In this document: positions 514 to 59,755 of the stretch, piece by piece | Position numbering within the stretch: the stretch's first letter is position 1 | Layout: each line of letters begins with the position of its first letter | Origin: a virus | Direction: 5' to 3' (one strand) | Virus record (IMG/VR): IMGVR_UViG_3300024503_000485 | Span: 1-64,000 of that record | DNA: 64,000 bases | Notes under the pieces: generated by a model | Seen by the model: the letters and a program-made list of their open reading frames with translations, nothing else | Told to the model about the DNA's origin: nothing | Databases searched by the model: none | Program-made: the position numbers and the translations under genes

Positions 514-1449
514 TTATGCTTCCTTAATGTTAGAAATATTTTTTAGTTTAAGCTCTTCCATTAGGTCCGTCAACCATCGTAATACCTTTACATTTGGTTT
601 ATAACCCAGTTCGGCTAATCTTGTAATATCTGCTTCTGTATTTGCTACTGCTCCAACACGTGGCGGAACAACTATTTGTCTATGACTAATAATGTCTGCC
701 AATTGTTTGATACTTACAGATTGGCCTGATCCTAAATTGAATACGTCTCCGTGTTCACCGTACTCTAGAACAATCATAAGACCTTTGATAACATCACTAA
801 CATGAACAAAGTCTCTGCGTTGATCACCACCGCCGTGTAACAACAACGGTTGATTGGTTTCCCAGGCAGAAATAAACTTTGGAATCACTAATGCGTTTTT
901 GCCAAAGTCCATAAAGTCTCCGTACATGGTAAAAGGTCTTATTATTATTAATTCTGTATCCCCAACAAGACTCTGCACGTGAAGTGCCCATTCTGCAGAC
1001 ATCTTGCTCACAGCATAAGGATTGGTTGGCATCAATTGGCTATCTTCTCGTTGTTTGATTGTACCGTTGTTTCCATACACTGAGCTAGAACTTATATAAA
1101 CAAATTTCCTTACACCCATAGTTTGGCATAAACTAAAAAATTTATGTGTTGCTGTTATGTTTACATTATAGTATTCAGCGTACTCATTCCAACTAGGATC
1201 AATCCTAGATCGATTGGCCATATGAACAACAACATCAACTTCTTTAAGATGTTCTTTTAAAACTGGAATATCTTCTGTTATATCGCAATAATGTATTTGA
1301 TTATTGTGCGACCACCCTTCTCGAACACTTTGGTCCCATAAGAACGGAGGTTTATCAATCAATACCGTTTCGTCAAACATTTGTTTTAAGAATGGGGTAG
1401 CATTGCGTCCAAGAAACCCATTTGCTCCAGTGATCATTAATTTGCTCAT
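514..1449 (-). CDS. NAD-dependent nucleoside-diphosphate-sugar epimerase/dehydratase (SDR family)
   Basis: N-terminal Rossmann motif ITGANGFLG, with YxxxK-type SDR catalytic region, 311 aa. Confidence 0.75.
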   Translation of the reverse strand: MSKLMITGANGFLGRNATPFLKQMFDETVLIDKPPFLWDQSVREGWSHNNQIHYCDITEDIPVLKEHLKEVDVVVHMANRSRIDPSWNEYAEYYNVNITATHKFFSLCQTMGVRKFVYISSSSVYGNNGTIKQREDSQLMPTNPYAVSKMSAEWALHVQSLVGDTELIIIRPFTMYGDFMDFGKNALVIPKFISAWETNQPLLLHGGGDQRRDFVHVSDVIKGLMIVLEYGEHGDVFNLGSGQSVSIKQLADIISHRQIVVPPRVGAVANTEADITRLAELGYKPNVKVLRWLTDLMEELKLKNISNIKEA

Positions 1450-16705: not shown

Positions 16706-16712
16706 CCAGTTA

Positions 16713-16787
<75 letters not shown>

Positions 16788-16799
16788 CCACTTGAGAAA

Positions 16800-37322: not shown

Positions 37323-37568
37323 CTATTTAGCCCATCTTAGGTGATACTCTACTTCTATTTTAGAATCGTAAAATTCTACTACAAGTGCAAGATTTTCAGC
37401 TATTTTTTCAACAACTAATTGACACTTTGTTTTGGGCTGAGCTAAAATCCATTCTAAATGATCTACACCAATCAGCTTTTGTATTTTAGGCCAATCTATA
37501 TCAATGTTGCCAACAACTTCAATATCTGGGGACGACCACTCTGCTAGAGTAACTTTAGTATGTTTCAT
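37323..37568 (-). CDS. hypothetical small protein
   Basis: 81-aa ORF. Confidence 0.4.
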   Translation of the reverse strand: MKHTKVTLAEWSSPDIEVVGNIDIDWPKIQKLIGVDHLEWILAQPKTKCQLVVEKIAENLALVVEFYDSKIEVEYHLRWAK

Positions 37569-47444: not shown

Positions 47445-48612
47445 TATTCCTATCCTTTTGAACAGCTGGTTTTACATCGCTTAGATATAAAACACAATAG
47501 TGGTTATCAATCCACGTTTGAGACATATTGCTCATAGGAGGAAAAGATTTGTTCACTACTATAATACTAACATCGTCTTCTTCTTTAATCAACCACTTTG
47601 CAGGCTTTTTAAAGATTAGTAATCTACCTTCAGACAAATCTCCACCGAGACCCGAAGCTCTAACCCATTCGTTGAACTTTGGATCTTCGTCGTTCCTACT
47701 TCGAAAACAAATTTTTATTTCCTCTTTGCTAACTCCATTGTTAATGGCGGAGATAACAAACGACTCTAACCAACTTTTTAAATGATTATCTTCACTGACT
47801 ATTAAAATAACTTTTTTCTTTACGGTTTTATACAAATTAAAAAATTTACTAAAATCGTCGGTCCAAAAATAATTTGTATTATATGAGGCTACTCTATGAA
47901 TAAGATTTTTTGATGTAGACCCGTACAATACATAACCCATACGCTTTGCCAGCATTAGGTCGTGATCTAATTCTTTTAATTTTCTAGAATCAAAATACTC
48001 TTGTGCAGACGAAGTTGCGTTTTGTAATACTACTTCATCGTTTACAATTTTGCAGGCTGGAGCATAATACTCTGCGTCGTTCCAAATCTGTTCAACATCT
48101 GCTAGTGCATGATTAAATGATTCGTCAATATTAAATCCGTGTCTAATTGCAAATTCATTTACTAAAATTAAATTTAAATCGTAGATGTTATATTTTCTAA
48201 CTTTATCGTCTGGATTCCAAAGAGATCGATCTTCTCTGTTATTTTTAAGAACTTCTTTTTCAAAAACTTCTTTAAGAGAATAAGGATGTTTTAAGCATAA
48301 CCAAAGTTTATCATTTTTGTCTTTTTCAACAAAAATGCTTTTAGTCATATCTAAATTTCTAAAAGGATTTTTCCATGTTGCGTTTTGTAATCTAAAATTT
48401 AAATTTAATTGTCGTGTACTAAAATGATTTTTATATTTTTCCATTAACTTGATAACATAGTTTGCCTGCGCTTGGGTAAGATTTTTGTTATCTGCAATTA
48501 AATTGAAAAAATTTGTCAATACGACAATGTCCTGATTATTCAAGAAATTTGTAGATATAACCGAAGTATAAAATTCGGTAAAGATGTCTTCGAAATATTC
48601 ATTCGCCGCCAT
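47431..48612 (-). CDS. hypothetical protein
   Basis: 393-aa ORF. Confidence 0.45.
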   Translation of the reverse strand: MAANEYFEDIFTEFYTSVISTNFLNNQDIVVLTNFFNLIADNKNLTQAQANYVIKLMEKYKNHFSTRQLNLNFRLQNATWKNPFRNLDMTKSIFVEKDKNDKLWLCLKHPYSLKEVFEKEVLKNNREDRSLWNPDDKVRKYNIYDLNLILVNEFAIRHGFNIDESFNHALADVEQIWNDAEYYAPACKIVNDEVVLQNATSSAQEYFDSRKLKELDHDLMLAKRMGYVLYGSTSKNLIHRVASYNTNYFWTDDFSKFFNLYKTVKKKVILIVSEDNHLKSWLESFVISAINNGVSKEEIKICFRSRNDEDPKFNEWVRASGLGGDLSEGRLLIFKKPAKWLIKEEDDVSIIVVNKSFPPMSNMSQTWIDNHYCVLYLSDVKPAVQKDRNIVDL

Positions 48613-48642: not shown

Positions 48643-49482
48643 TCAAGACTTTTGTAAAATATTTACTAACCTTTTTTGAGGAATTCCGTCAACCATTTCT
48701 GATAATAACCACTCGGTATGACAAAGTTTTTTGAACCAGTCGCTCCGTTCAGGAATAATTGGGTTTTCTATATTTTCAAAGTTATTAGAAAGTTCGCCTG
48801 CAAGACTTGTTTGATCGCAAATTACAGGTACACCGTTAATTGATGCTTTAACTGCTGGACCACTATTAAAATTTACTACACAATGATAATTATAATCTAT
48901 ATCAAAATCATCGTAGGTATTTGCCACTAATCTTGGATATTGTACCAACACATTTGGAGAATTTACAACTACAGGCGACCGTGGATGTGGCCTTACAACA
49001 ATTAACCTATCAGTATATTTTCTTATTTCTGCTACGGTATTTTTTACCCAAACAGACATAGACGGTTGACCAACCCACTGGAGGCTTTTTTCATGCTGAC
49101 TAGCAATTAGTATTTCTTTTCGTCGTAGTGTATTTTCTGGTTTTAATTGAATATTTAATTTTTGTGGTCGTGCTTCGTCAATCTCATCTTGATTTCCAAA
49201 TTCACCTAGGCCGTTAATATTATTTAAACTAACCCTCCACGTTAATCCTCTAACCAAATTTCCAACTTCAATAATCATCACAGGAATATTAGCTGCTTGG
49301 CATTGTTCGTAAACAGATTTATTACTAAACATTCTTCCATGCCAAAGTACGCTCCAGATAACAGCTACATCTTCTTCCTTATCGACAATAGTATGTCCTA
49401 ATTTTTTTAGTCCAAGTTCAAAGGCATCAAATACAGGCCCACTATTCATGGCTCCATACTTTCTATACAATTTAAATTTCAT
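48643..49482 (-). CDS. putative glycosyl/phosphoglycosyl transferase, paralog family A (1 of 3)
   Basis: Shares EIRKYTDRLIVVRPHP, NFNSGPAV...INGVPV and IENP..P.R..W blocks with ORFs 52446 and 54798. Confidence 0.45.
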   Translation of the reverse strand: MKFKLYRKYGAMNSGPVFDAFELGLKKLGHTIVDKEEDVAVIWSVLWHGRMFSNKSVYEQCQAANIPVMIIEVGNLVRGLTWRVSLNNINGLGEFGNQDEIDEARPQKLNIQLKPENTLRRKEILIASQHEKSLQWVGQPSMSVWVKNTVAEIRKYTDRLIVVRPHPRSPVVVNSPNVLVQYPRLVANTYDDFDIDYNYHCVVNFNSGPAVKASINGVPVICDQTSLAGELSNNFENIENPIIPERSDWFKKLCHTEWLLSEMVDGIPQKRLVNILQKS

Positions 49483-49525
49483 AGTTTTTTGAATTATAAA
49501 TAACAGAGTATTTAATTCTAATTCA

Positions 49526-49942
49526 ATGAGTAAATTTGAAAAAACGTTAAGAAAGAAAGTAGGAAAGCCCCAAAATACTATTCTATTGGGATTAGGGCCT
49601 AGCGAGATTGAAACAGCATCAAACGTTTTTCAATCTGTATTTGTATTTTCTTCTATAGATCAGTCGTTTAAAAATAGAAACGTAATCTATTTTGAAAACT
49701 TTAACGATATGGCCAAATTACCGGAAGTAAATTTTATACTTATTAATCCTGAAAATATTAAAGAAATGCCAAATATTACACCAATATTAAAAAATTCAAA
49801 ACCGCTGGTTATGATACTTTCAGGGGAATATATACATAAACGTTTTTCAAAGTGGCTAATTGAAGAAATGCATTATGAACTAGTTGAACTCGACACTCAT
49901 CGTCAACTATGGAAAAAGAAACGATTATTAGGACAATTATGA
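49526..49942 (+). CDS. hypothetical protein
   Basis: 138-aa ORF. Confidence 0.4.
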   Translation: MSKFEKTLRKKVGKPQNTILLGLGPSEIETASNVFQSVFVFSSIDQSFKNRNVIYFENFNDMAKLPEVNFILINPENIKEMPNITPILKNSKPLVMILSGEYIHKRFSKWLIEEMHYELVELDTHRQLWKKKRLLGQL

Positions 49943-50919
49943 AAAAGACAGCATTTGTAACAGGAATGACAGGACAAGACGGTCCATATCTTGCTAAACT
50001 TCTTCTAGAAAAAGATTATAAAGTATATGGTCTTGTAAAAAGATATTCTAATCCAAATTTAGATAATATCAAATATTTAGGTATTGAAAACGACATTGAG
50101 TTGATCACCGGCGATATTACAGACGACGGATGTATCAACCATTTAGTTAAAAGTCTTAAACCAAATGAATTTTATAATCTTGCCGCTCAAAGTTTTGTAG
50201 GAGCAAGCTGGGACCTTAATAAATTAACCACTGAAGTTAATGCTGTTGGCCCTTTAAATAATCTTAATGCTATTAAGCAGCATAGTCCAGAAACAAAATA
50301 TTATCAAGCAAGCACTTCCGAAATGTACGGTAATAGCATTGAAATTTCCGGAGGACACCAAGACGAAACAACACCGTTCTGGCCCCGTAGTCCATACGGA
50401 GTTGCAAAATTATATGCTTACTGGATCACCGTAAATTTTAGAGAAAGTTACGGAATTCATGCTTCAAATGGAATATTGTTTAATCACGAAAGTCCTATTC
50501 GAGGTAAAGAATTTGTTACAAGAAAAATTACAGATGGCGTAGCAAAAATTAAATGTGGCCTTGCTGACAAAATTACTTTAGGTAATTTAGATTCTAGAAG
50601 AGACTGGGGTTTTGCCGGTGATTTTGTTGAAGCTATGTGGTTAATGTTACAACAAGACGAACCGGGCGATTATGTTATTGCCACAGGAGTTCAATACACT
50701 ATTGGTGATTTATTAGAACGTGCATTTAGATATGCAGGCATCGAAGACTGGGAAAAATATATTGAATCAGATCCAAGATTTAAGAGACCGGCAGAGCTTT
50801 ATAGCCTTTGTGGAAACCCCGCTAAAGCAGAAAATGTCCTTGGGTGGAAACGTAAAACTAGTTTTGACGATCTAGTTAAAATGATGGTTGAAGCAGATAT
50901 CAAACGTTATACTAAATGA
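49939..50919 (+). CDS. gmd: GDP-mannose 4,6-dehydratase
   Basis: N-terminus KTAFVTGMTGQDGPYLAKLLLEKDYKVYGLVKR matches the GMD signature; SDR YxxxK present. Confidence 0.8.
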   Translation: MKKTAFVTGMTGQDGPYLAKLLLEKDYKVYGLVKRYSNPNLDNIKYLGIENDIELITGDITDDGCINHLVKSLKPNEFYNLAAQSFVGASWDLNKLTTEVNAVGPLNNLNAIKQHSPETKYYQASTSEMYGNSIEISGGHQDETTPFWPRSPYGVAKLYAYWITVNFRESYGIHASNGILFNHESPIRGKEFVTRKITDGVAKIKCGLADKITLGNLDSRRDWGFAGDFVEAMWLMLQQDEPGDYVIATGVQYTIGDLLERAFRYAGIEDWEKYIESDPRFKRPAELYSLCGNPAKAENVLGWKRKTSFDDLVKMMVEADIKRYTK

Positions 50920-51740
50920 CAACAAAATTTGCAGTAGTCACTACTTTTCATCAGGCTGGGTACGAAAAATACGGTCGAAGGATGATTCAAACCTTTTTAG
51001 AATCATGGCCTAAAGATGTAACCTTATATGTGTATCCTGAGAATTGTGCAGTAATTGAAACTGCTCCAAACCTCGTTGTGAGAGATTTACACTCGTCAAG
51101 TCCCGAACTAGTTGCATTTAAAGAAAAGTGGAAAAATGACCCAAAAGCCAGAGGGGAAGTAGCCATGGGACCTCCTGGACCTAAGGGAAAGATTCCCGGA
51201 ATTGGTTTTCGTTGGGATGCTATTAGATTTAGTCATAAAATTTATTCGGTATGTCATGCGGCAGAAAATACCGATGCCGATATACTGCTTTGGATGGATG
51301 CTGACATGGTTTGCCATACCACACTTCCGGTGCATTTTTTAGAAAAAATGGCAGGTACTCATGTGGGTTTGGGATTTTTAGGTAGAGAAAATAAATTTAC
51401 CGAATGTGGATTATATTCGATGAATTTAAGAAATCCTGCTACTCAAGAATTTTTAAAAGAATTTCAAAAGGCCTACGACACTGGCAGAATTTTCACCATG
51501 AAAGAGTGGAATGATTGTTGGGTTTTTGACGTTGTTCGAGAAGAAATTAAAAAACTTCATCCTGACTGGTATTGGTACAACTGGAGTAAGGGATTAATCA
51601 AAGGAGAAGGCCATCCGCTGGTTAATAGTCCTTGGGGTGCTTATCTCGATCACCTTAAAGGTAACCGAAAAAATACCGGAAAAAGCCTAAAAACAGATTT
51701 TATTCGTCAGCGTACTGAAAAATATTGGATTACTCAGTAA
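50916..51740 (+). CDS. putative DxD-motif glycosyltransferase, paralog family B
   Basis: ILLWMDADMV block shared with ORFs 51730 and 53381. Confidence 0.4.
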   Translation: MTTKFAVVTTFHQAGYEKYGRRMIQTFLESWPKDVTLYVYPENCAVIETAPNLVVRDLHSSSPELVAFKEKWKNDPKARGEVAMGPPGPKGKIPGIGFRWDAIRFSHKIYSVCHAAENTDADILLWMDADMVCHTTLPVHFLEKMAGTHVGLGFLGRENKFTECGLYSMNLRNPATQEFLKEFQKAYDTGRIFTMKEWNDCWVFDVVREEIKKLHPDWYWYNWSKGLIKGEGHPLVNSPWGAYLDHLKGNRKNTGKSLKTDFIRQRTEKYWITQ

Positions 51741-52476
51741 TTTGATATTCGTGTTTTGAATGCTTGGCTTTGTAATGATCTAAATATTCCCCAAGCACGG
51801 TATGCTTCATTGGAGTTTTGTAAGGCTTTTTAAAATCTTTGCATAAATCATTGCCTTTTGCTCCGATTTTTTCAAAAACATAACCATATACATCGTTATC
51901 GTAAAATCTTCTTAAATTTTTTGAATCTTGTTCAACAAAGTGTCTACGATACTCATTTCTAAAATTAAAAAAGTTTGGATGTTTTGTGTTTACAGCAGAA
52001 AAACCAGTCTCAGGAACAAACCATCTACCAGGAGTTCCGTCTTTAGCTGACAAATATGTAACTCCCATGTGAGTGCTAAGAACATTGTCAGGTAAAACTG
52101 ATTTTAACAAGTCTAAAGGAAGTTTTTTCTTTGTAATAACATCGGCGTCTAACCAAATAATTCGATCAGCATCGCTGTTAAACATTGCGTGTATAAAACT
52201 AAAAGATTTTTTAGCAAATTTTCTTTCTTGACCGCCTATACCTTTAGTATTTTGAAAAATTTCATATGCAGGGTCTAATTCTTTAAAGTCTATTTGTTTA
52301 ATTCGGTTTATGTTTGGTAATTGAAACTCTTCGACATAGCAAGTCAGTGTTAATTCTTCTGGCCAATATGTTAACCAAGACTCTACAGAGTCTCTTCCGA
52401 TGAGATTATAATAATATTCGTTGAAACTTGTTATAACTTCTATTTTCATACATACTTTCTCATATGAGACCAACAT
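51730..52476 (-). CDS. putative DxD-motif glycosyltransferase, paralog family B
   Basis: IIWLDADVI block. Confidence 0.4.
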   Translation of the reverse strand: MLVSYEKVCMKIEVITSFNEYYYNLIGRDSVESWLTYWPEELTLTCYVEEFQLPNINRIKQIDFKELDPAYEIFQNTKGIGGQERKFAKKSFSFIHAMFNSDADRIIWLDADVITKKKLPLDLLKSVLPDNVLSTHMGVTYLSAKDGTPGRWFVPETGFSAVNTKHPNFFNFRNEYRRHFVEQDSKNLRRFYDNDVYGYVFEKIGAKGNDLCKDFKKPYKTPMKHTVLGEYLDHYKAKHSKHEYQITE

Positions 52477-53384
52477 TCCCCGTTGGTAATTTCTTCAAAG
52501 TTCCAATGGAACATAGCCAACCGTTCTACCCATTTTTGTCTGTCTGGTAAATTAGGATTTTCAATGTCAGATAAATTCATATTTGAAATTTCTGCACACT
52601 GACTTTTTTCAGGATCGGTGACAAAAATAGGATATCCTTCAATTGCGGCTCCTACGGTTGGACTTGAATTATAATTTACCACAGCCCAGCAATTTTTTAA
52701 ATCATGTTCTAGTGTTGTGCCTGGTTGTGATAACCTAATATTGTTATTTTTGTGACCAAGTTTTTTTATCAAGTTTTGAGGACTTAAATAATCTTTTGAG
52801 CCTTTGTCACCTGGATGTGCTCTTAATACAATTTCTCTATCAGTGTATTTTCTAATCTCTTTTAAGGTTGCTGCGGTCCATTCTACCACATCATATCCAC
52901 CCATCGACCATCCGCCATTTCGTTGTAAACAAAATAAAATGTGATTTCCTGTAGTGCGATAGTCTTTTAAAGATAAATTTAAATTTTTAGAAAGAGTTAT
53001 CCAACGTTGAGGATCAATTTCTTTATCGCAATACTCTCCTGTATTAGGAAATATTCCGTTAAAACTATATCTTAAATAATGTTTAGGATTTGTATTATCT
53101 TTATATAAAAATAAATTACTATCTGCCAATAAAACTTTTTTATTTGCATTAAGTTGATAATCAATGATTTTTCTTCTAAATTCTAAATGTGCAGTTCCTT
53201 TAGATCCTGCATGAACCCATCCTATGCTCATACCTACGTCAGCAGGAACAACTCGCATGTCGGTCACAAGTTCAACTTCGTCACCGTATTTTTGAACCCC
53301 AGTGGCATATAATTTTAAAATTTCTCCTTTTTCAACATTTTTGTTGTTAGGAGGAATACAAGCTAGGTATGCTGCAAATTTCAT
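52446..53384 (-). CDS. putative glycosyl/phosphoglycosyl transferase, paralog family A (2 of 3)
   Basis: EIRKYTDREIVLRAHPGDKG, NYNSSPTV, IENPNLPDRQKW. Confidence 0.45.
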   Translation of the reverse strand: MKFAAYLACIPPNNKNVEKGEILKLYATGVQKYGDEVELVTDMRVVPADVGMSIGWVHAGSKGTAHLEFRRKIIDYQLNANKKVLLADSNLFLYKDNTNPKHYLRYSFNGIFPNTGEYCDKEIDPQRWITLSKNLNLSLKDYRTTGNHILFCLQRNGGWSMGGYDVVEWTAATLKEIRKYTDREIVLRAHPGDKGSKDYLSPQNLIKKLGHKNNNIRLSQPGTTLEHDLKNCWAVVNYNSSPTVGAAIEGYPIFVTDPEKSQCAEISNMNLSDIENPNLPDRQKWVERLAMFHWNFEEITNGECWSHMRKYV

Positions 53385-54808
53385 TTATTAGTATTTTTAA
53401 TTAAAAGTTCTTTATTTAGAATACCAATGTGATGATGAAAATATTCATTCAACGGGCTGTACTTAATGGAAAATTCATTTTTTCGTTCATCGGCGCCATT
53501 GAGTTGCCACTTATCTGCTGTATCGCAATAAGAACCAATTCCATATTTTCCTATTAAAGACCCTAGCATATGATTATCGTATATTTGCCTTTGTTGATAA
53601 ATTTGTCCATTATACCAACCAGTAGAATATTCTCTAATAAATGCCGGAAATGCTTCGTGTTTTGTATTAAACGCAACAATTCCAGTTTCTAAATCTAACC
53701 CCGTACCAGGAATTAATGTTGCACATACTCGAGCGCCGGGGCTCAGTAATTCTTTTGCTTTTGAGAAAGATAAGGGACGTTTAACAGAAATATCAGCGTC
53801 TAACCAAACTACAAGACCACCAAATTTTCTTGCTGCCCATACCTGTACACGACTCTTTTTCCAGAATCTATCTGCTTTAGTTCCTCCCATTGCTTCTTGA
53901 ACCCAAGGGTCCTGTGTATTAGCAACATCTTTCCAGAACATAAAATTTTTACCAAATCCTAGATCTACAGGTTTGTCATCCCAAACAAAAACAACATCGC
54001 CCGGTAATGTATTTCTCCAAGATGCAAGTGTAATACTACCTACTTCGTTAAAATAATCTCTAGAAAGACTAGTAACAAACGTCAATGGAGGACGAGGCTT
54101 AGAACCAAATTCTAATCCCAACTCATTAGCATAATCAATTAAGTATTGATACCATACATTTTTATATAAACAATCCATGTAATGGGGGAACCAAGGTCCG
54201 CCCTCAGTCCAGTGGTATGCAACAGGCTTTCCGTCTTTTGTTTCATCATTCCATCCGACAAGAAAATTATATTTTGTTGAAACAGAACCAATCTCGTGAT
54301 CCTGTAACCATTGGAACCTATGTAAAAATTGTCCTGTTTGAGAATTTACCACCTCTGGTGTTAATGCTCTGTTTGATGGATGCTCACAATTCCATAAAAT
54401 CATCGAACTCCAGTTCTTTCTTGGATACTGGGCCTGTTGTTTGTTGTCCATCTTTACGGTATTTGTTGGTTGATGATTATGTTGAACAACCATTACAGCA
54501 TATTTTGGATCTGCTTGAGCAAATAATTCTGATATGTTACCGTCCCAAACAAAATCACAATCGCAGAATAAAGCCCAACCTTTGTATTTTTGTAAAGATG
54601 GCACTAAAAATCTAGTAAATGTAAATTCGGTGCTTCCTAAAGAATCGACATCTCTTGTATATAGACCGTCTCGTCTTAATTGGTCCTGTTTTAAAGGCTT
54701 AACAATAGCATCAGGTGTATTTTTATAGATTGAAAATTCGCATACCTTATATGCAATATCTTCTCTAGAATCGTAACCGATATAAACAGGTAAAAAATCA
54801 AAATTCAT
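53381..54808 (-). CDS. tandem two-domain DxD glycosyltransferase (family B duplicated)
   Basis: Two B-type domains: LFCDCDFVWDG in the N-terminal half and LVVWLDADISV in the C-terminal half. Confidence 0.4.
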   Translation of the reverse strand: MNFDFLPVYIGYDSREDIAYKVCEFSIYKNTPDAIVKPLKQDQLRRDGLYTRDVDSLGSTEFTFTRFLVPSLQKYKGWALFCDCDFVWDGNISELFAQADPKYAVMVVQHNHQPTNTVKMDNKQQAQYPRKNWSSMILWNCEHPSNRALTPEVVNSQTGQFLHRFQWLQDHEIGSVSTKYNFLVGWNDETKDGKPVAYHWTEGGPWFPHYMDCLYKNVWYQYLIDYANELGLEFGSKPRPPLTFVTSLSRDYFNEVGSITLASWRNTLPGDVVFVWDDKPVDLGFGKNFMFWKDVANTQDPWVQEAMGGTKADRFWKKSRVQVWAARKFGGLVVWLDADISVKRPLSFSKAKELLSPGARVCATLIPGTGLDLETGIVAFNTKHEAFPAFIREYSTGWYNGQIYQQRQIYDNHMLGSLIGKYGIGSYCDTADKWQLNGADERKNEFSIKYSPLNEYFHHHIGILNKELLIKNTNK

Positions 54809-55613
54809 TTAACATTCTCCAGGCTGCGCCATTTTTTAATTCATCAATGTGATATTGTCCGTAGGCTAAATGGCAAGCCCATGCATATACTTTATCTTTG
54901 TCGGGATAGTACGGAGTTTCGATTTGACTCAAATCTTGTGATGCAACAGGAGAAGCTGCATGTGTAGGTGCTAGCGTAAATGCAGGATATCCGTATAAAA
55001 TTGCTTCGGTTGCTGAATTTGAATTATATGTAACTAACGCATGAACATCGTCATCAAGTGCTTCTTTTAACGTATTTGTAAGTACACGATCTGTTCTGCT
55101 TTTAACTCGTTGGCGTACAACAATTTCTCTATCTGTATATTGTTTAAGAGTATAGATAGTATCGTTGATCCATTCTTCTAAATCAATATTATAAAACTTA
55201 CAAGGTTTTTCATCAGGGGCTGCAATAAGAATTTTTTTGCCGCCTTTTTTCCAATTGTGAATAGGAATTCCTAATTTTCTAAATCTATCGTCTGGCCTTT
55301 GAATTATAGTATTTCCGTGTTGTATATCGTTTTTAACAATCCTATGCCAATATTTCCAACCCATGGGATTTAATGCACTTTTTTGATTACCCATATATCC
55401 GGTATCCATAAAATAAAAATCTCTATTATCAAACCAACAACGTTGCATGATTTTTTTCTTAAGAATACCTCTAAGGACAATGGGGTCTCTGCTGTGCTCA
55501 TATATAAAATCATCTGTGTTTATCACTCGACCATTAGCGCCAAGTGCAAACATGTTGATATATTCATCTTGTCCGTCTTTACTAAGAAAGATCCAATTGG
55601 TCATCTGTTTCAT
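54798..55613 (-). CDS. putative glycosyl/phosphoglycosyl transferase, paralog family A (3 of 3)
   Basis: QYTDREIVVRQ, TYNSNSATEAILYGYP, IETPYYPDKDKVYAW. Confidence 0.45.
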   Translation of the reverse strand: MKQMTNWIFLSKDGQDEYINMFALGANGRVINTDDFIYEHSRDPIVLRGILKKKIMQRCWFDNRDFYFMDTGYMGNQKSALNPMGWKYWHRIVKNDIQHGNTIIQRPDDRFRKLGIPIHNWKKGGKKILIAAPDEKPCKFYNIDLEEWINDTIYTLKQYTDREIVVRQRVKSRTDRVLTNTLKEALDDDVHALVTYNSNSATEAILYGYPAFTLAPTHAASPVASQDLSQIETPYYPDKDKVYAWACHLAYGQYHIDELKNGAAWRMLNEF

Positions 55614-56371
55614 TGTCTTTCTATATCATCTTCAATGCATTGTTCACCGTATTGAATTTCAACAACTTTCACAGGAACATCAAACGGATTAGTAAGTTGA
55701 TGCCACTCGTTAACTGGTACTTTGTACTCAACGTGCTTTCTTAAATGAACGCTAGGCATAGCGTAACCGCTGTTCATTAGTCTGTTTACTTCTGCTTCAC
55801 CGTCGCTGACTATCCAGTATTCTGCTCTTAATTTATGTCGTTGCATACTTAATTTTTTTCCAGGATCAACGGTTAGTTCTTTTACTTTCATTCCTGGTAC
55901 TTCGTGCAAGACACGATAATATCCCCACGGACGTTCGGTCTTTGGTGCTTTCCATTCTTGTAAAATCCATGAGCTAGAATTCATCTTATGTTCGCCGCCA
56001 ACTCCAAATACAAATTCTAAATTATCGTCTTTAATATCCATTTCGGGAATATTAGCATTTGTTCTATCACCGCCGTTAGCAAATATAATTTTATCGTTGG
56101 GATAAATTTCACGAACTTTTCTAATAGCATCTTTAGCTGAACCGTCGTCGTCGTTAAAATTAATAACTCGAGATACATTTGTTAAAGCGCCTAATATGCT
56201 TGAACGTTCTTCCCAAGGCATAAATTCTTGACCTTTTTTTCTTCTTAACCATGCATCGGAATTTGCACCAACAACTAGAACATCACCTAATTTTTTAGCT
56301 TCATTAATATAAGCAATATGGCCAGAATGAATAGGATCAAATCCTCCAGTAACTAACACTATATTTTTCAT
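55610..56371 (-). CDS. bifunctional sugar-phosphate nucleotidyltransferase (cytidylyltransferase-like HxGH) with C-terminal cupin
   Basis: TGGFDPIHSGHI is a CTP-transferase-like motif. The C-terminal WGYYRVL...MQRHKLRAEYWIV is a mannose-6-P-isomerase-type cupin. Confidence 0.6.
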   Translation of the reverse strand: MKNIVLVTGGFDPIHSGHIAYINEAKKLGDVLVVGANSDAWLRRKKGQEFMPWEERSSILGALTNVSRVINFNDDDGSAKDAIRKVREIYPNDKIIFANGGDRTNANIPEMDIKDDNLEFVFGVGGEHKMNSSSWILQEWKAPKTERPWGYYRVLHEVPGMKVKELTVDPGKKLSMQRHKLRAEYWIVSDGEAEVNRLMNSGYAMPSVHLRKHVEYKVPVNEWHQLTNPFDVPVKVVEIQYGEQCIEDDIERQ

Positions 56372-57552
56372 TTTAGTCCTTTCAAAATAGTTTCTAGTAA
56401 TAGTAAATCGTTGTCATTAACAAAATGATTGTTTCCAATATAAACACCAACATCGTGTAATATGTCGGCATTATGAGGGCTGTCTGTTTCAATATTATAT
56501 TTTTTTAAAAATGGATGTTTTAATAAATTTCCACTTACTACAGGCCGATATTCGATGCCGTGTTTTTTAAATTCGTCTAATAGTGTTATATATGTTTCTT
56601 TACTTTTACAAATAAAAGGAAAACAGAAACTACTATTAGTTTCATCTTCTTTAGGAAAAAAGAATTTATCAGGATATTGTTTAATAATTTTTAAATATTT
56701 TTTAAAATTTTCTTTACGGATATGAATCATGCTATCCAATCTTTTTAGTTGTGACATACCTAAAATTGCAGGTAACTCATGATTTCTAAAATTATATCCG
56801 TCTGTCATAAACAGAAAACTAGGAGGCAAGTTTGGATATTCATCTTGATATTTTTTAAAATATTCGGGAGATCCTTCTCTAGCTAGACCGTGACTTCTTT
56901 TTAATCTCATCAATTCATATAATTCTTGATTGTTTGTGGAAATCATTCCTCCCTCAACGGTAGTCATGTGATGGCCGAAATAAAAGCTAAAAGTTGCCCC
57001 TAAAGAATCTGAACCTCTTTTTTTGTTATTAGGATCGCAAACACCGTGTGATTCGCAAATGTCTTCTAGTATGAGCGCATCTGGAAATATTTCTTTGTAT
57101 TTTTCTATTTCAGCATCTAAGCCCAACAGATGTGTGACAAATATTATTTTAATGTCTTTATGTTTATTTTTTAATTTTTTTAACTTTTCAACATCGTAAC
57201 TAAAAGTTGATAAATCAATATCTGCAAAGATTGGTTTAAATCCAGTTTGAATTACTGGGGCAACGTTTGTGACCCATGTACACGCAGGAACTAAAACTTT
57301 ATCCCCGTCTTTAAAATTATATAACTCTTTAATAGCAGATAATAATAATAAATTTGCTGTGCTGCCAGACGAAACAAATAAAGAATATTTAGAACCTAAC
57401 CATTCATTCCACTGAGCCTCAAATAATTTTACTTTTTCTCCGTTAGTGAATTTTTTTGAAGTTAAAATGAACTTGATCATTTTAAATTTGTCTGGCCAAG
57501 TAATTGTATCTTTCATTAAAGGCCATTTTAGTATTGGTGGTTTATTGATCAT
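56368..57552 (-). CDS. DegT/DnrJ/EryC1 family PLP-dependent sugar aminotransferase/3-dehydratase (ColD/E1-like, His in place of Lys)
   Basis: SSGSTANLL, DIDLST, and FSFYFGHHMTTVEGG. In the last block His occupies the usual PLP-lysine position, as in the sugar 3-dehydratases ColD and E1. Confidence 0.65.
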   Translation of the reverse strand: MINKPPILKWPLMKDTITWPDKFKMIKFILTSKKFTNGEKVKLFEAQWNEWLGSKYSLFVSSGSTANLLLLSAIKELYNFKDGDKVLVPACTWVTNVAPVIQTGFKPIFADIDLSTFSYDVEKLKKLKNKHKDIKIIFVTHLLGLDAEIEKYKEIFPDALILEDICESHGVCDPNNKKRGSDSLGATFSFYFGHHMTTVEGGMISTNNQELYELMRLKRSHGLAREGSPEYFKKYQDEYPNLPPSFLFMTDGYNFRNHELPAILGMSQLKRLDSMIHIRKENFKKYLKIIKQYPDKFFFPKEDETNSSFCFPFICKSKETYITLLDEFKKHGIEYRPVVSGNLLKHPFLKKYNIETDSPHNADILHDVGVYIGNNHFVNDNDLLLLETILKGLK

Positions 57553-58270
57553 GGTAACAAATTGCCGTATGGTTTATATAAATTTCCGAGTAGCCGCGAA
57601 GATGAAATTCTTCGCAAATAATTGAAGTATCGCAATCAAATTTTTTAAATCTTTCATTAAACCAGCCGTACCGTGCACCGTCCTGAAATGGTTTTGCATC
57701 AAATAAGCATACTCCGTTACATGTTGAATAATATTTTCCAAAAGGAGTAATATCCCAATCTTTATGTAATTTTCCTCTGTCTTCGTCGGCGTGTCTTCGT
57801 GTAGCCCAAACATCATATAATTTTCCGTTTGTTCCTTTTGAAACCATTGATACAATATCAACTTTTGTTAAATTATATGTTTCTTGAAAATTTAAAATTT
57901 TTTCAACATCTTGTAGATCAAATCTCATATCGGATTCAATATCTAATATATGATCTACATTGTTAAGAAAATTTTTTGCTTCGATTGCTTTATTTCTTGC
58001 TGCTGCTAAATTTTTTACACGCTGTTCATCTTTAACAGAATGAAAAAATTCTGTTCCTATATTTTCGCAGATAATAGAAAAATCTTTAGCGAAGGACCAA
58101 TCTAAATTATTCAATTTAATTTTGGTATCATCAGTTGAATCGTTTTCATACAAAGAAATATAAAAATTATAATTAGGAAAATGCTCAACTATTGATTTTA
58201 TTTGAGAATAATATTGTTCTATTTTTTGACTAGAATTTCTAAAAATAGTGTATATCAAAATGTTTTTCAT
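57542..58270 (-). CDS. putative GT-A-type glycosyltransferase
   Basis: YENDSTDDT is DxD-like. 242 aa. Confidence 0.35.
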   Translation of the reverse strand: MKNILIYTIFRNSSQKIEQYYSQIKSIVEHFPNYNFYISLYENDSTDDTKIKLNNLDWSFAKDFSIICENIGTEFFHSVKDEQRVKNLAAARNKAIEAKNFLNNVDHILDIESDMRFDLQDVEKILNFQETYNLTKVDIVSMVSKGTNGKLYDVWATRRHADEDRGKLHKDWDITPFGKYYSTCNGVCLFDAKPFQDGARYGWFNERFKKFDCDTSIICEEFHLRGYSEIYINHTAICYHDQ

Positions 58271-58314
58271 GAACTATTTATAAAATAAATATTTGGCATT
58301 TTAAGGATTAGAAT

Positions 58315-58962
58315 ATGTGGGTATTAGCAAGTCGCGGAAGACCAAAGAACCTAAAACGGTTTATTAAATGCTGGAAAGAAACTAAAGGATCAACTCCAGT
58401 TTATATTAGATTAGATGAATGCGATCCAGAAATTGAAAATTATAAAAAATTAAATTATCCAAAAGAATTTCATGTTGTAATAGAATCTCGAGCCAGGTTA
58501 GGACGGGCAATGAACGAGATGGTTGAAAGGTATCCAAACGAACCGTGGTATGGATTACTAGCAGACGATTTAATCCCACAAACTCAAAATTGGGATCAAA
58601 AACTTGTAATTGCTGCTTCTAATAATTTTATATCTCAATGTAATGATTTAACAAGAAAGCCACAAAACTGCTGTCATCCTTGTATAGGGGGAGATTTGAT
58701 AAGAAAAATTGGATGGTTTGCTTTACCTGTATGCACCCATTATTGTGTTGAACTTCCTTGGAAAGAGCTTACTAAAAGAAATCCAGAAATTTTAAAATAT
58801 CTTTCAGATGTAGTTGTTGAACATGCGCATTATCGATTTGACAAAGCTGAATTGGACAACACATACAAAGAGTTAAAAACTTTAAAACATCCTGACCACG
58901 AAATTTGGGATCAATGGAAATTACAACATCTTGACGAATTTTGTATCAAGGCGTTGAGCTAA
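58315..58962 (+). CDS. hypothetical protein (possible glycosyltransferase-like)
   Basis: WYGLLADDLIP segment. 215 aa. Confidence 0.35.
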   Translation: MWVLASRGRPKNLKRFIKCWKETKGSTPVYIRLDECDPEIENYKKLNYPKEFHVVIESRARLGRAMNEMVERYPNEPWYGLLADDLIPQTQNWDQKLVIAASNNFISQCNDLTRKPQNCCHPCIGGDLIRKIGWFALPVCTHYCVELPWKELTKRNPEILKYLSDVVVEHAHYRFDKAELDNTYKELKTLKHPDHEIWDQWKLQHLDEFCIKALS

Positions 58963-59755
58963 AAAACAACTCAATATTTCTATCTTTATTATTGATGTTG
59001 TTAACTTGTTTTAATAATTCTAAATCAATTCCTAGACTAGACGCTTCTGTTTGAATAGCACTAATATCTTTTGGAAAGCATATGCCACCCCAACCAAATT
59101 TTCCATCTGGTCCGGGAACATTTAAATGTGTATAACCAATTCGATCATCATAAATGGTTAGATCTTTTAACGATTCAAAACTTACATTCTCTGCCTTTGC
59201 TAACTTATAAAATTCATTCATAAATGTTACCTTAGTGGCAAGGTACGCATTCATCATATACTTGTATAAGGCAGCAGACTTAATATCAGTAACTAAAAAT
59301 TGCCTGTGGACTAGAGGAACACCTGATCGAATAACATCTCTAGCAGTAACACATAATTCTCCGTTACCGCCTAGAATAAAATATCTACTATTTTGATAAT
59401 CGGCGCTAGCATTAGCCGCAGTTAAAAATTCTGGGCAATGAATTATTGAAGGATATTCTTTTAAAAGTTGATTGTATATGCTAGGAGTTGCTGTCGATTT
59501 GCATATTAACGGTATTTTTTCGCTAATGCCTGCATTATATAATTCTTTTAAAACCTGTTCAAGAATAGAGGCATCACAACTACCATTGTCTAAAGCTGGA
59601 GTTGGAACACAAATAAAGATTCCGTCGCAATCTAAGAATTTTTCATAGTCGGCACTATCTTCAAATTTTGGATCTCGAACTACTCTTTCATCATTACGAT
59701 GTGCCCAATAAATTGCTTCTCCAACAAAACCTAGACCAATAATTCCTATTTTCAT
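58946..59755 (-). CDS. nucleotide-sugar dehydrogenase-like Rossmann protein (short)
   Basis: MKIGIIGLGFVGEAI is a UDPG/GDP-Man dehydrogenase-type N-terminus. At 269 aa it is shorter than canonical enzymes. Confidence 0.45.
   Translation of the reverse strand: MKIGIIGLGFVGEAIYWAHRNDERVVRDPKFEDSADYEKFLDCDGIFICVPTPALDNGSCDASILEQVLKELYNAGISEKIPLICKSTATPSIYNQLLKEYPSIIHCPEFLTAANASADYQNSRYFILGGNGELCVTARDVIRSGVPLVHRQFLVTDIKSAALYKYMMNAYLATKVTFMNEFYKLAKAENVSFESLKDLTIYDDRIGYTHLNVPGPDGKFGWGGICFPKDISAIQTEASSLGIDLELLKQVNNINNKDRNIELFFSSTP

What the first reader, a model, noticed from the sequence alone, without database searches (positions are those of the whole stretch)
48643..59755. An 11-kb nucleotide-sugar biosynthesis and glycosyltransferase island between uvsW and uvsX, with a ColD-like 3-dehydratase: candidate DNA hypermodification or glycan module
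The island encodes GDP-mannose 4,6-dehydratase. Its DegT-family enzyme has His in the PLP-lysine position (FGHHMTTVEGG), which is diagnostic of the sugar 3-dehydratases ColD/E1 that act on the GMD product. This predicts a 3,6-dideoxyhexose (colitose-like) nucleotide sugar. It also carries an HxGH nucleotidyltransferase-cupin fusion, a short nucleotide-sugar dehydrogenase-like protein, a GT-A-like enzyme, and two transferase families in multiple copies: three family A genes and four family B domains, one gene being a tandem fusion. A distant SDR epimerase (514-1449) and a carbamoyltransferase-like gene (39610) may contribute. T4 places its DNA glucosyltransferases next to uvsX in the replication module, so this could be an elaborate DNA sugar hypermodification system. 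Alternatively it could modify virion or host surface glycans.
Basis: partly seen in the sequence, partly recalled or inferred. Interest (0 to 1): 0.75.

Follow-up and report, generated by a model that had tools for sequence, protein, structure and literature searches.

The report
Jumbo-phage glycan-building gene island
An uncultured aquatic jumbo phage carries an 11-kb block of sugar-activating enzymes and about ten soluble glycosyltransferase domains, including two unnamed families. It most likely builds a bacterial-LPS-like oligosaccharide with a strain-variable 3,6-dideoxy-sugar cap, and nothing tested so far points to DNA as the target.

Summary
Window 48643-59755 holds 13 genes between uvsY and a 393-aa gene that precedes uvsW. 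They are a GDP-mannose 4,6-dehydratase, a ColD-type 3-dehydratase (His aligned to ColD His188), a HIGH-nucleotidyltransferase/PMI-cupin fusion, a short NDP-sugar dehydrogenase and about ten glycosyltransferase domains. Correction: family B has three detectable domains, not four. The N-half of the 475-aa protein is a separate GT8/GT24-like domain. Family A models as a GT-B fold closest to retaining beta-Kdo transferases (KpsC, WbbB). Family B is a GT8-like GT-A fold. Neither has a Pfam, NCBIfam or PHROG model. Isolated relatives (Vibrio phage 2.275.O, CBB) lack the island. An abundant uncultured clade keeps it at this locus, with a conserved core and a swappable cassette next to uvsY; ColD belongs to that cassette. 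No island protein has a transmembrane segment. No thymidylate-synthase homologue, TET/JBP oxygenase or C5-methyltransferase was found in about 84 kb. An ADP-heptose pathway lies just beyond the window. Verdict: a glycan-assembly island. The acceptor is unresolved: virion protein about 0.35, host LPS/LOS about 0.3, DNA about 0.15. It is a new variant of a known kind.

The parts
48643..49482 (-). Family A glycosyltransferase paralogue A1 (279 aa). Predicted GT-B fold, beta-Kdo-transferase-like, with an RPHP motif. Coupled downstream to the 393-aa ORF and uvsW.
   Evidence: Paralogy. No Pfam, NCBIfam or PHROG hit. Conserved at 51-59% identity in relatives L007, L008 and L015.
49526..49942 (+). 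Conserved small ORF (138 aa) of unknown function. First gene of the plus-strand operon o138-GMD-B1. It diverges fast.
   Evidence: Present in L007, L008 and L016 at 26-35% identity. Only a weak TIR hit (0.027).
49909..50919 (+). GDP-mannose 4,6-dehydratase (336 aa).
   Evidence: PF16363 7.7e-116. TIGR01472 scores 404 bits, just under the cut-off of 415. 1rpn 5.8e-125. 87% identical in L007, L008 and L015; no hit in the deeper relatives L019 and L020.
50916..51740 (+). Family B glycosyltransferase B1 (274 aa). GT-A fold, DxD motif WMDADM.
   Evidence: Weak GT2 hit.
51730..52476 (-). Family B glycosyltransferase B2 (gene callers start it at 52449, giving 239 aa). GT-A fold, GT8-like.
52446..53384 (-). 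Family A glycosyltransferase A2 (312 aa). GT-B fold closest to retaining beta-Kdo transferases, with an RAHP motif.
53381..54808 (-). Two-domain glycosyltransferase (475 aa). N-half is GT8/GT24-like (DxD motif FCDCDF); C-half (residues about 241-473) is family B.
   Evidence: phrog_28018 3.7e-52 on residues 6-222. PF01501 weak. The family B HMM matches residues 241-473 only. The two domains are unfused in L016, L018, L019 and L020.
54798..55613 (-). Family A glycosyltransferase A3 (271 aa). It lacks the HP motif and has RQRV instead.
55610..56371 (-). Fusion of a HIGH-type nucleotidyltransferase (RfaE-II/HldC-like) and a type II PMI cupin (253 aa). Inferred role: sugar-phosphate isomerase plus NDP-sugar pyrophosphorylase. 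It is the most deeply conserved gene of the island.
   Evidence: PF01467 plus PF01050. rfaE_dom_II 4.7e-20 and GMP_PMI C-terminal part 1.2e-20. 5x9q 5e-10. At least 8000 homologues (the scoring cap), the 120 best 75-87% identical. Retained in L019 and L020, where no GMD hit was found.
56368..57552 (-). ColD-type PMP-dependent GDP-4-keto-6-deoxy-D-mannose 3-dehydratase (394 aa). Part of the variable cassette.
   Evidence: 2gms 6e-64, His188 column. Replaced by other genes in L007, L008, L015 and L016.
57542..58270 (-). CAP59/GT69-like GT-A glycosyltransferase (242 aa), overlapping the start of ColD by 11 nt. Inferred to transfer the GDP-3,6-dideoxyhexose. Part of the variable cassette.
   Evidence: PF11735 1.2e-12. 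Gene overlap seen.
58315..58962 (+). Glycosyltransferase (215 aa, phrog_14945). Part of the variable cassette.
   Evidence: 2.3e-31. Homologues are annotated as glycosyltransferase in Streptomyces, Arthrobacter and Pelagibacter phages.
58946..59755 (-). Short NDP-sugar 6-dehydrogenase-like protein (269 aa) with no C-terminal nucleotide-sugar domain. It overlaps the uvsY stop codon by 4 nt. Part of the variable cassette.
   Evidence: 47% identical copy in L007, absent in L008.
514..1449 (-). UDP-glucuronate-4-epimerase-like SDR (311 aa). First gene of a second sugar-nucleotide cluster (an ADP-heptose pathway) that runs off the left edge of the window. A possible contributor to the island, not a proven one.
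   Evidence: Neighbours seen in L023.

Best explanation
The island is a self-contained cytoplasmic glycan-assembly line of an uncultured aquatic jumbo myovirus. It is not a DNA-base glycosylation system.

Sugar supply:
- The nucleotidyltransferase-cupin fusion makes an NDP-manno-type sugar. It is inferred to do this by ketose/aldose isomerisation followed by nucleotidyl transfer, as an analogue of bifunctional PMI-GMP enzymes. The product could be GDP-mannose or an NDP-heptose.
- GMD converts GDP-mannose to GDP-4-keto-6-deoxy-D-mannose. This step is shown by homology.
- The ColD-type enzyme removes the C3 hydroxyl to give GDP-4-keto-3,6-dideoxy-D-mannose. This is shown by homology plus the His188 signature.
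- The reduction or epimerisation to a colitose- or tyvelose-type sugar is not encoded in the island and is inferred.
- An ADP-heptose pathway and a UDP-uronate epimerase just outside the island, and possibly host CMP-Kdo, add further donors (inferred).

Assembly:
- Seven conserved soluble GT domains build a conserved core oligosaccharide. They are three Kdo-transferase-like GT-B enzymes (A1-A3), three family B GT-A domains and one GT8/GT24-like domain.
- A strain-variable cassette next to uvsY supplies and attaches the cap. In this phage the cassette is ColD, a GT69-like GT, another GT and a short dehydrogenase.

Acceptor:
- It is a protein or a lipid. My single best guess is phage structural proteins, that is virion glycosylation as in chloroviruses, mimiviruses and mycobacteriophages.
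- Probabilities: non-DNA glycoconjugate about 0.7; virion protein specifically about 0.35.
For: - Enzyme identities.
- Fold assignments for the two unnamed families.
- No transmembrane segment in any island protein (highest 19-residue Kyte-Doolittle mean 1.27).
- Conserved core and swappable cassette at the same locus in L007, L008, L015, L016 and L018-L021.
- The GTs diverge faster (51-74% identity) than the backbone (82-91%).
- About ten GT domains imply a multi-sugar product.
- No ThyA homologue, ThyX, TET/JBP oxygenase or C5-methyltransferase in the window or either 10-kb flank.

For a virion target in particular:
- Family A plus GT8-like homologues sit directly after the tail genes in Caulobacter phage CcrColossus.
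- They sit at the head of the terminase-portal-capsid gene string of podovirus ct7QV12.
- Here, tail sheath and TerL lie on the same strand just upstream.
- Among viral structure models, the best matches to family A include four Tetraselmis virus 1 paralogues (ranks 2, 3, 7 and 8), two of them named 'capsule polysaccharide biosynthesis protein'.
- Family B resembles PBCV-1 A64R, which glycosylates that virus's capsid protein.
- The same GT set occurs in phages of unrelated hosts such as SAR11 and Caulobacter, and related contigs are binned with Bacteroidota. This fits an acceptor that the phage itself supplies.
Against: - No acceptor was identified, and no glycoprotein or glycan data exist for this uncultured phage.
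- The sugars and enzyme families are exactly those of the LPS core and O-antigen: Kdo-transferase-like, GT8, heptose and 3,6-dideoxyhexose. LPS-core assembly on lipid A also needs only peripheral GTs without membrane spans.
- Genes at both ends of the island are translationally coupled to uvsY and uvsW. This suggests expression with early or middle replication genes rather than with late virion genes.
- No ColC-type enzyme is present, so the final sugar is unknown.
- The donor specificities of families A and B rest on fold similarity at 9-16% sequence identity.
Confidence: 0.55

Rival explanations
1. Remodelling of the host envelope. The soluble GTs extend the host's lipid A-Kdo core, or an undecaprenyl-linked intermediate, at the cytoplasmic face of the inner membrane. 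Host MsbA/Lpt or ABC-transporter machinery then exports the new LPS/LOS or capsule-like glycolipid. The changed cell surface would block superinfection, or stop progeny phage from being lost on cell debris.
For: - The enzyme families are those of LPS-core and capsule-linker synthesis: family A resembles KpsC/WbbB, and family B and the GT8 domain resemble LgtC/WbbM.
- A phage-encoded ADP-heptose pathway lies beside the window.
- The 3,6-dideoxyhexose is a classical O-antigen sugar.
- A GT25 enzyme is present in L016 and a GT9 enzyme in CcrColossus.
- There are three family A paralogues, matching the three Kdo-transferase modules of KpsS plus KpsC. The KpsS/KpsC module count is recalled from memory, not tested here.
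- LPS-core GTs need no membrane span, which fits.
- Coupling to early-type genes fits the need to act early.
- A temperate podovirus carries families A and B, as seroconverting phages would.
- This is the standard reading of similar cyanophage clusters (PMC12801897).
Against: - There is no initiating phosphoglycosyltransferase, flippase, polymerase, ligase or Gtr-type protein.
- The same GT set is kept in phages of very different hosts. That requires a universal acceptor.
- Related GT paralogues exist in a giant virus of a eukaryotic alga.
- There is no experimental precedent for a lytic phage rebuilding the LPS core.
Confidence: 0.3
2. DNA hypermodification. The GTs attach a glycan to a hydroxylated or hydroxymethylated pyrimidine in phage DNA. 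This would protect the DNA from restriction and other nucleases, and the variable cassette would diversify the modification.
For: - The island sits between uvsY and uvsW, and its end genes are translationally coupled to them.
- T4 beta-gt lies next to uvsX (established knowledge).
- All island proteins are soluble.
- Phage DNA glycans containing Kdo, heptose and hexuronic acid are documented. One heptose cluster uses a CTP_transf-type nucleotidyltransferase, and secondary DNA GTs resemble GT8 enzymes and PBCV-1 A64R (10.1101/2023.12.21.572611).
- Full sugar-nucleotide pathways accompany the DNA arabinosylation clusters (PMC13326640).
- Six 2OG-Fe(II) oxygenase genes lie in the window.
Against: - No thymidylate-synthase homologue, TET/JBP oxygenase, C5-methyltransferase, dCTPase or dNMP kinase was found in about 84 kb. 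Such pathways are normally clustered with their GTs.
- The oxygenases belong to PF13759 or PF13640, not to the TET/JBP family.
- Known DNA glycans need one to three GTs and reach tri-saccharides or short arabinose chains. This island has about ten GT domains.
- Homologous GT sets occur in a temperate podovirus that replicates with host enzymes.
- Mild avoidance of TGCA, AGCT and ACGT (observed/expected about 0.75) hints that the DNA is exposed to restriction. This evidence is weak.
Confidence: 0.15

Closest known systems
GDP-L-colitose pathway of E. coli O55/O111 and Yersinia (ColB/GMD, ColD, ColC)
   Same: GMD and a ColD-type 3-dehydratase with the His188 signature. Full-length similarity to the solved ColD structure.
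   Different: There is no ColC (GDP-fucose-synthase-like) gene in the island or the window. There is no ManC-type guanylyltransferase; a HIGH-nucleotidyltransferase/PMI-cupin fusion stands in its place. The genes are phage-encoded and belong to a swappable cassette.
'LPS / cell-wall synthesis and modification' gene clusters of large marine cyanomyoviruses (ACG-2014f, S-SCSM2R, S-SCSM1, P-SSM2)
   Same: Clusters of about 10 kb holding nucleotide-sugar enzymes, many soluble GTs, methyltransferases and sulfotransferases. ACG-2014f has GMD, a GDP-fucose-synthase-like SDR, and a ColD homologue that is 56% identical with the same FGHHMTTIEGG motif. S-SCSM2R has a 49%-identical GT8/GT24-like GT three genes from KdsB and KdsA. 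The function of these clusters is untested (PMC12801897).
   Different: The phage lineage is different (a jumbo phage related to 2.275.O, CBB and GAP32). Families A and B were not detected in those cyanophage clusters. Here the locus is fixed and anciently conserved between uvsY and uvsW, with a core-plus-cassette layout.
Giant-virus virion glycosylation machineries (PBCV-1 A064R/A64R and GMD; Mimivirus and Megavirinae fibril glycan clusters; Tetraselmis virus 1 'capsule polysaccharide' paralogues)
   Different: The host is prokaryotic. No glycoprotein evidence exists here. Sequence identity is only 15-21%.
Phage DNA sugar-hypermodification clusters (T4 alpha/beta-gt; MT+5mYOX+GT clusters of Pyle et al.; RB69/DLP3/RL38JI 5-hydroxycytosine glycosylation)
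   Same: Soluble GTs recruited from LPS-type families. Dedicated sugar-nucleotide enzymes, including CTP_transf-type nucleotidyltransferases. Proximity to replication and recombination genes.
   Different: No precursor-base enzyme is nearby. There are about ten GT domains rather than one to three. No GT resembles T4 alpha/beta-GT, JGT/TarP or GT4-type DNA GTs.
Retaining beta-Kdo glycosyltransferases KpsC, KpsS and WbbB (GT107/GT99; Pfam Capsule_synth)
   Different: The window proteins themselves give no Pfam or PDB sequence hit. A3 lacks the HP motif. A QxxxD-type catalytic motif is not evident. The donor sugar is unknown.

Membership tests
ColD-type GDP-4-keto-6-deoxy-D-mannose 3-dehydratase | DegT/DnrJ/EryC1 (fold type I aminotransferase) sequence family | tested here: met
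   PF01041 1.4e-59
ColD-type GDP-4-keto-6-deoxy-D-mannose 3-dehydratase | Histidine in place of the PLP-binding lysine (ColD His188) | tested here: met
   HMMER alignment to 2gms. The aligned column is the one changed in the H188N (3b8x) and H188K (2r0t) entries.
ColD-type GDP-4-keto-6-deoxy-D-mannose 3-dehydratase | Closer to ColD than to the CDP-sugar dehydrase E1 or to true aminotransferases | tested here: met
   ColD 6e-64; E1 1.9e-32; best aminotransferase 2.9e-26
Complete GDP-L-colitose pathway | ColC (GDP-fucose-synthase-like 5-epimerase/4-reductase) present | tested here: not met
   None in the island. The SDR at 514-1449 is UDP-GlcA-epimerase-like and scores only 4.9e-13, over part of its length, against the GDP-fucose synthase model. 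Cyanophage ACG-2014f does have such an enzyme (4.8e-126).
Phage DNA sugar-hypermodification gene cluster | A precursor-base enzyme near the GTs: a thymidylate-synthase homologue, or a C5-methyltransferase plus TET/JBP dioxygenase | tested here: not met
   Pfam scan of essentially all window ORFs of 50 aa or more (a few doubtful short ORFs were left out), and of the called genes in both 10-kb flanks, found none. The remaining roughly 265 kb of the genome was not visible.
Phage DNA sugar-hypermodification gene cluster | A GT resembling known DNA GTs (T4 alpha/beta-GT, JGT/TarP-like GT-A, GT4-like arabinosyltransferases) | tested here: inconclusive
Phage DNA sugar-hypermodification gene cluster | Glycosylated bases in virion DNA | not testable with these tools
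   The phage is uncultured and known only from metagenomes.
Retaining beta-Kdo transferases (GT99/GT107, Capsule_synth) | Modified GT-B fold most similar to KpsC/WbbB | tested here: met
Retaining beta-Kdo transferases (GT99/GT107, Capsule_synth) | HP motif in the C-terminal domain | tested here: inconclusive
   Present in A1 (RPHP) and A2 (RAHP), and nearly invariant across the family. Absent in A3 (RQRV). That this motif defines the family is recalled from memory.
Retaining beta-Kdo transferases (GT99/GT107, Capsule_synth) | Sequence membership in Pfam PF05159 | tested here: not met
   No hit for A1-A3 at E of 0.1 or better. Only 2 of 40 distant relatives reach it (best 9.4e-5).
Bifunctional PMI-GMP (type II phosphomannose isomerase / mannose-1-P guanylyltransferase) | C-terminal PMI cupin (PF01050) | tested here: met
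   8.6e-24 on residues 144-252
Bifunctional PMI-GMP (type II phosphomannose isomerase / mannose-1-P guanylyltransferase) | N-terminal NTP_transferase (PF00483) domain | tested here: not met
   The N-domain is a HIGH-type CTP_transf_like domain. Its nearest relatives are heptose-1-P adenylyltransferases.
Virus-encoded virion glycosylation systems | Soluble virus-encoded GTs linked to structural genes | tested here: inconclusive
   All island proteins are soluble. Sheath and TerL lie on the same strand 5-15 kb away. Homologous GTs adjoin tail or terminase genes in CcrColossus and ct7QV12. In this phage, however, the island is coupled to uvsY and uvsW.
Phage seroconversion / O-antigen modification systems | Membrane components (GtrA/B/C, Wzx, Wzy, O-acetyltransferase) | tested here: not met
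   No hydrophobic segment in any island protein.

The most novel reading that the evidence does not exclude
The island, together with the neighbouring ADP-heptose pathway, decorates the phage's own DNA with an LPS-like hetero-oligosaccharide (Kdo- or heptose-type core with a 3,6-dideoxyhexose cap). The precursor-base enzyme would be encoded elsewhere in the genome, or would be of an unrecognised kind, for example one of the six PF13759/PF13640 2OG-Fe(II) oxygenases. This would be by far the largest and most elaborate DNA glycan known, diversified by cassette exchange.
Probability: 0.12. Interest if true: 0.9.

Novelty: new variant of a known kind. Interest (0 to 1): 0.55.

Why it matters
- Clusters of nucleotide-sugar and glycosyltransferase genes are common in large aquatic phages, yet none has a demonstrated product or target.
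- This island is an unusually clean case. It has a fixed locus, a deeply conserved seven-domain GT core, a swappable capping cassette, and two large GT families with no curated model (family A has about 4,300 clusters at 50% identity).
- It sits in a phage clade represented by thousands of metagenomic contigs.
- It gives a concrete and testable prediction: a Kdo/heptose-type core capped by a 3,6-dideoxyhexose.
- Phage 'aminotransferases' with the His188 signature, including those of cultured Synechococcus phages that carry a complete colitose-type pathway, look mis-annotated and are more likely sugar 3-dehydratases.
- Identifying the acceptor would show which strategy these abundant phages use: glycan-coated virions, rebuilt host LPS, or DNA protected by a giant glycan.

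Tried and rejected
- Megablast of the island against 50,697 phage records: no match.
- Sequence searches of families A and B, the 475-aa GT and the phrog_14945 GT against PDB: nothing significant.
- T4-type late promoter TATAAATA: three copies in the window, two of them in the island's short divergent intergenic regions. My own estimate from base composition is about 11 copies by chance, so no timing inference was drawn.
- Isoelectric points of the GTs are near neutral (5.6-8.8) and do not bear on DNA binding.
- Palindrome statistics: TGCA, AGCT and ACGT are mildly under-represented (observed/expected about 0.75) and GATC is over-represented (1.24). This is too weak to decide whether the DNA is modified.
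- The two hypothetical ORFs between the GT24-like gene and KdsB in S-SCSM2R are not detectably family A or B.
- The 'moraphage' paper (PMC12619734) describes a different lineage, so only its references were used.
- The phiCbK genomics paper says nothing about the GT cluster.
- The genome-contig scan found only phage contigs binned into MAGs or SAGs, so it gave no bacterial gene context for family A.
- The afdb50 fold library was not available, and Freeman et al. 2023 is not held.
- The 393-aa ORF (47431-48612) was considered as part of the island. It is conserved next to it but is coupled to uvsW and has no detectable domain, so it was left out.
- The carbamoyltransferase N-domain gene at 39610 shows no link to the island.

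Full report
**What the window is.** The window is 100% identical to ENA metagenome contig ERZ27251701:k141_198002 (97,873 bp). Near-identical contigs (99.97-100%) occur in several sister samples. Its UvsX is 66-71% identical to those of jumbo myoviruses: Vibrio phage 2.275.O, Pectobacterium phage CBB, Cronobacter phage GAP32, Xanthomonas phage XbC2 and Agrobacterium phage Atu_ph07. Related contigs reach 350-352 kb. The source is therefore an uncultured aquatic jumbo phage. No isolate is close, and megablast of the island against phage genomes finds nothing.

Thirteen ORFs fill 48643-59755. All the named enzymes are confirmed.
- GMD: PF16363 7.7e-116, and 1rpn 5.8e-125 over the full length.
- ColD-type DegT enzyme: the best solved relative is E. 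coli ColD/WbdK at 6e-64 over residues 9-386. The first His of 'GHH' falls in the column mutated in the H188N and H188K ColD structures. ColD scores far better than the CDP-sugar dehydrase E1 (1.9e-32) or any aminotransferase (2.9e-26 or weaker).
- HIGH-nucleotidyltransferase/PMI-cupin fusion: PF01467 plus PF01050.
- 269-aa nucleotide-sugar dehydrogenase: it keeps the catalytic Cys motif and lacks the C-terminal domain.
- GT69 (CAP59)-like GT.
- Three family A paralogues.

Three corrections are needed.
- Family B has three detectable domains, not four. The N-half of the 475-aa protein is a distinct GT8/GT24-like domain (phrog_28018).
- A further GT lies at 58315-58962.
- The island is bounded by uvsY and by a 393-aa ORF coupled to uvsW, not directly by uvsX and uvsW.

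**The two unnamed families.** Neither family matches Pfam, NCBIfam, PHROGs or PDB sequences.

Family A:
- The AlphaFold2 model of A2 has pLDDT 87.6.
- An RxHP motif is nearly invariant across the family. A3 lacks it.
- Exhaustive HMMER finds 4,329 cluster representatives at 50% identity. Two of 40 diverse members weakly hit Pfam Capsule_synth.
- In a viral structure library the best matches include four Tetraselmis virus 1 paralogues (two of them named 'capsule polysaccharide biosynthesis protein'), uncultured tailed phages and Caulobacter phage CcrColossus.

Family B:
- The model of B2 has pLDDT 92.8.

**It is an insertion, but an old and stable one.** In 2.275.O and CBB the order is gp32-UvsX-UvsY-(one gene)-UvsW. 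In the uncultured clade the island always sits in that gap.
- Close relatives (L007, L008, L015, L016; backbone 82-91% identical) have it there.
- So do deeper relatives (L019-L021; UvsX 70-76% identical).
- The deepest conserved set is the nucleotidyltransferase-cupin fusion, A1-A3, the GT8-like domain and family B domains.
- GMD is 87% conserved in the near relatives, but no hit was found in L019-L021.
- The segment next to uvsY is a swappable cassette. Here it holds ColD, the GT69-like GT, another GT and the short dehydrogenase.
  - L007 holds an FkbM-type methyltransferase, a GT17-like GT, an SDR and the short dehydrogenase.
  - L008 holds two methyltransferases, a GT17-like GT and a GalE-like SDR.
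  - L015 holds a 505-aa NTP-transferase and a methyltransferase.
  - L016 replaces GMD with a PseB/FnlA-type UDP-GlcNAc dehydratase and an RmlD-like reductase, and adds GT25.
- The GTs diverge faster (51-74% identity) than the backbone.

A conserved core with a variable 6-deoxy, 3,6-dideoxy or O-methyl cap is the pattern of exposed glycans such as O-antigens and chlorovirus or megavirus glycans.

**Sugar logic.**
- GMD followed by ColD gives GDP-4-keto-3,6-dideoxy-D-mannose.
- No ColC-type enzyme is present.
- That SDR opens a second cluster just beyond the window edge. In a 98%-identical strain it continues with ClpP, a cupin, a GmhB-type phosphatase (3.4e-40), an RfaE-II adenylyltransferase (2.8e-33), an RfaE-I kinase (2.6e-41) and an ADP-heptose 6-epimerase (3.8e-69). 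Together these form an ADP-heptose pathway.
- The N-domain of the island's nucleotidyltransferase-cupin fusion is nearest to heptose-1-P adenylyltransferases, and its C-domain is the PMI cupin. I infer that it performs the first and last steps of an NDP-manno-sugar pathway, like bifunctional PMI-GMP enzymes. Whether the product is GDP-mannose or an NDP-heptose is open.
- The GT69-like gene overlaps ColD by 11 nt. GT69 enzymes use GDP-mannose (established knowledge), so it is the likely transferase for the dideoxy sugar. This is an inference.

**The same parts occur in cultured phages.**
- Family A, family B and GT8-like genes sit together in Pelagibacter myophage Mosig, alongside methyltransferases and a sulfotransferase.
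- In Caulobacter jumbo siphophages they lie directly after the tail genes, next to genes annotated as sialyltransferase-like and GT9.
- In a temperate P22-like podovirus they stand at the head of the terminase-portal-capsid string, and that genome has no annotated polymerase or base-modification gene.
- Synechococcus phage ACG-2014f (54 records) has GMD, a GDP-fucose-synthase-like SDR, and a 56%-identical ColD homologue with the same His motif, annotated 'aminotransferase' or 'hypothetical'. This looks like a complete colitose-type pathway; I found no record or paper that names it as such.
- S-SCSM2R has a 49%-identical GT8/GT24-like GT three genes from KdsB and KdsA. Its authors class such genes as cell-wall synthesis and modification genes without testing them (PMC12801897).

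**Which acceptor?**

Evidence against DNA:
- Published DNA-glycosylation clusters are anchored by a thymidylate-synthase homologue or by a methyltransferase plus TET enzyme. They use one to three GTs and reach tri-saccharides or short arabinose chains.
- No such anchor is present in the window or in either 10-kb flank, about 84 kb in all.
- The six 2OG-Fe(II) oxygenases belong to PF13759 or PF13640, not to the TET/JBP family.
- There are about ten GT domains.
- Homologous GT sets occur in a temperate phage that replicates with host enzymes.

Evidence that keeps DNA alive:
- Kdo, heptose and uronic acids do occur on phage DNA, and a CTP_transf-type enzyme serves one such cluster.
- The genes at the two ends of the island are coupled to uvsY and uvsW.
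- Three quarters of the genome was not seen.

Virion protein versus host lipid:
- No island protein has a membrane span. This excludes Wzx/Wzy/Gtr-type routes. It fits both cytoplasmic protein glycosylation and LPS-core-type assembly on lipid A.
- Gene context in CcrColossus and the podovirus favours the virion. So do the giant-virus parallels, the sheath-TerL string upstream, and the conservation across phages of unrelated hosts.
- The LPS-like enzyme set and the early-type operon coupling favour the host envelope.
- I rate virion protein at about 0.35, host LPS/LOS or capsule-like glycolipid at about 0.30, DNA at about 0.15, and other acceptors as the remainder.

**Novelty and score.** Phage and giant-virus glycan clusters are a known kind. 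New here are:
- the fixed uvsY-uvsW locus in an abundant jumbo-phage clade;
- the core-plus-cassette architecture;
- two large uncurated GT families, one of them Kdo-transferase-like;
- the nucleotidyltransferase-cupin fusion;
- the recognition of ColD-type dehydratases in phages.

I class it as a new variant of a known kind, with interest 0.55. The DNA reading, if true, would be remarkable (interest 0.9), but I give it about 0.12-0.15.

Noticed in passing
L023:7218-11939 (contig ERZ27251542:k141_359225, just beyond the left edge of the window; window 1-513 holds the start of the ClpP gene): A 98%-identical strain carries ClpP (6e-98), a WbuC-like cupin, GmhB, RfaE-II, RfaE-I and an ADP-heptose 6-epimerase. 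Together these form a phage-encoded ADP-heptose pathway lacking a GmhA-type isomerase. A 5-aminolevulinate synthase (8e-172), a haem-pathway auxiliary gene, lies on the opposite strand.
   Followed up: partly
window 2061-2651, 8518-9141, 12287-12946, 12865-13476, 35022-35585, 38997-39617: Six 2OG-Fe(II) oxygenase paralogues (PF13759 or PF13640) are scattered through the window. Their substrates are unknown. They are not TET/JBP-type.
   Followed up: partly
window 38997-40554: A carbamoyltransferase N-domain-only gene (314 aa, 1.2e-25) and a 2OG-Fe(II) oxygenase are wedged between the primase-like gene (40648-41676) and the DnaB-like helicase (37555-39000). This is an odd place for such enzymes and a possible modification function.
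   Followed up: no
window 12000-33000: A stretch with G+C of 0.44-0.49, against 0.30-0.40 elsewhere. It is packed with short ORFs and holds tRNA-Arg(TCT) and tRNA-Met(CAT) at 16632-16790. It also has a MoxR-type AAA ATPase (21983-23068) and a DUF2201 metallopeptidase/VWA gene (23226-24434).
   Followed up: no
window 34345-35025: A phage-encoded Bax inhibitor-1/TMBIM-family membrane protein (PF01027, 6.4e-52). An SPFH/Band-7 protein (6081-6875) and an AlgH-like protein (10598-11155) are also present.
   Followed up: no
window 47431-48612: A 393-aa ORF with no detectable domain. It always lies between the island and uvsW and overlaps the uvsW start. It evolves much faster (34-49% identity) than its neighbours (82-91%). 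It is absent from 2.275.O and CBB.
   Followed up: partly
L019:12257-15024: In a deeper relative (a Crocinitomicaceae MAG contig) uvsW is split into two pieces about 1.3 kb apart. This suggests an intron, intein or homing-endonuclease insertion.
   Followed up: no
L017-L022 (genome-contig hits): Contigs of this phage clade are binned into bacterial MAGs (Lishizhenia, Crocinitomicaceae, Haliscomenobacter) and into a 335-kb contig filed under Candidatus Neomarinimicrobiota. This hints at Bacteroidota hosts and at contamination of MAGs by phage DNA. A SAR11 single-cell genome (G+C 0.25) also carries a family A gene.
   Followed up: partly
L013:7050-10167 (Synechococcus phage ACG-2014f): GMD, a GDP-fucose-synthase-like SDR and a ColD-type dehydratase form an apparently complete colitose-type pathway in a cultured cyanophage. 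The dehydratase is annotated 'aminotransferase' or 'hypothetical protein'.
   Followed up: partly
whole window: GATC is over-represented (observed/expected 1.24, z about 5). TGCA, AGCT and ACGT are under-represented (about 0.75).
   Followed up: no
L018 (Haliscomenobacter MAG contig): The whole island is inverted relative to uvsX and uvsY, with GMD next to uvsY. The island therefore rearranges as a unit.
   Followed up: no
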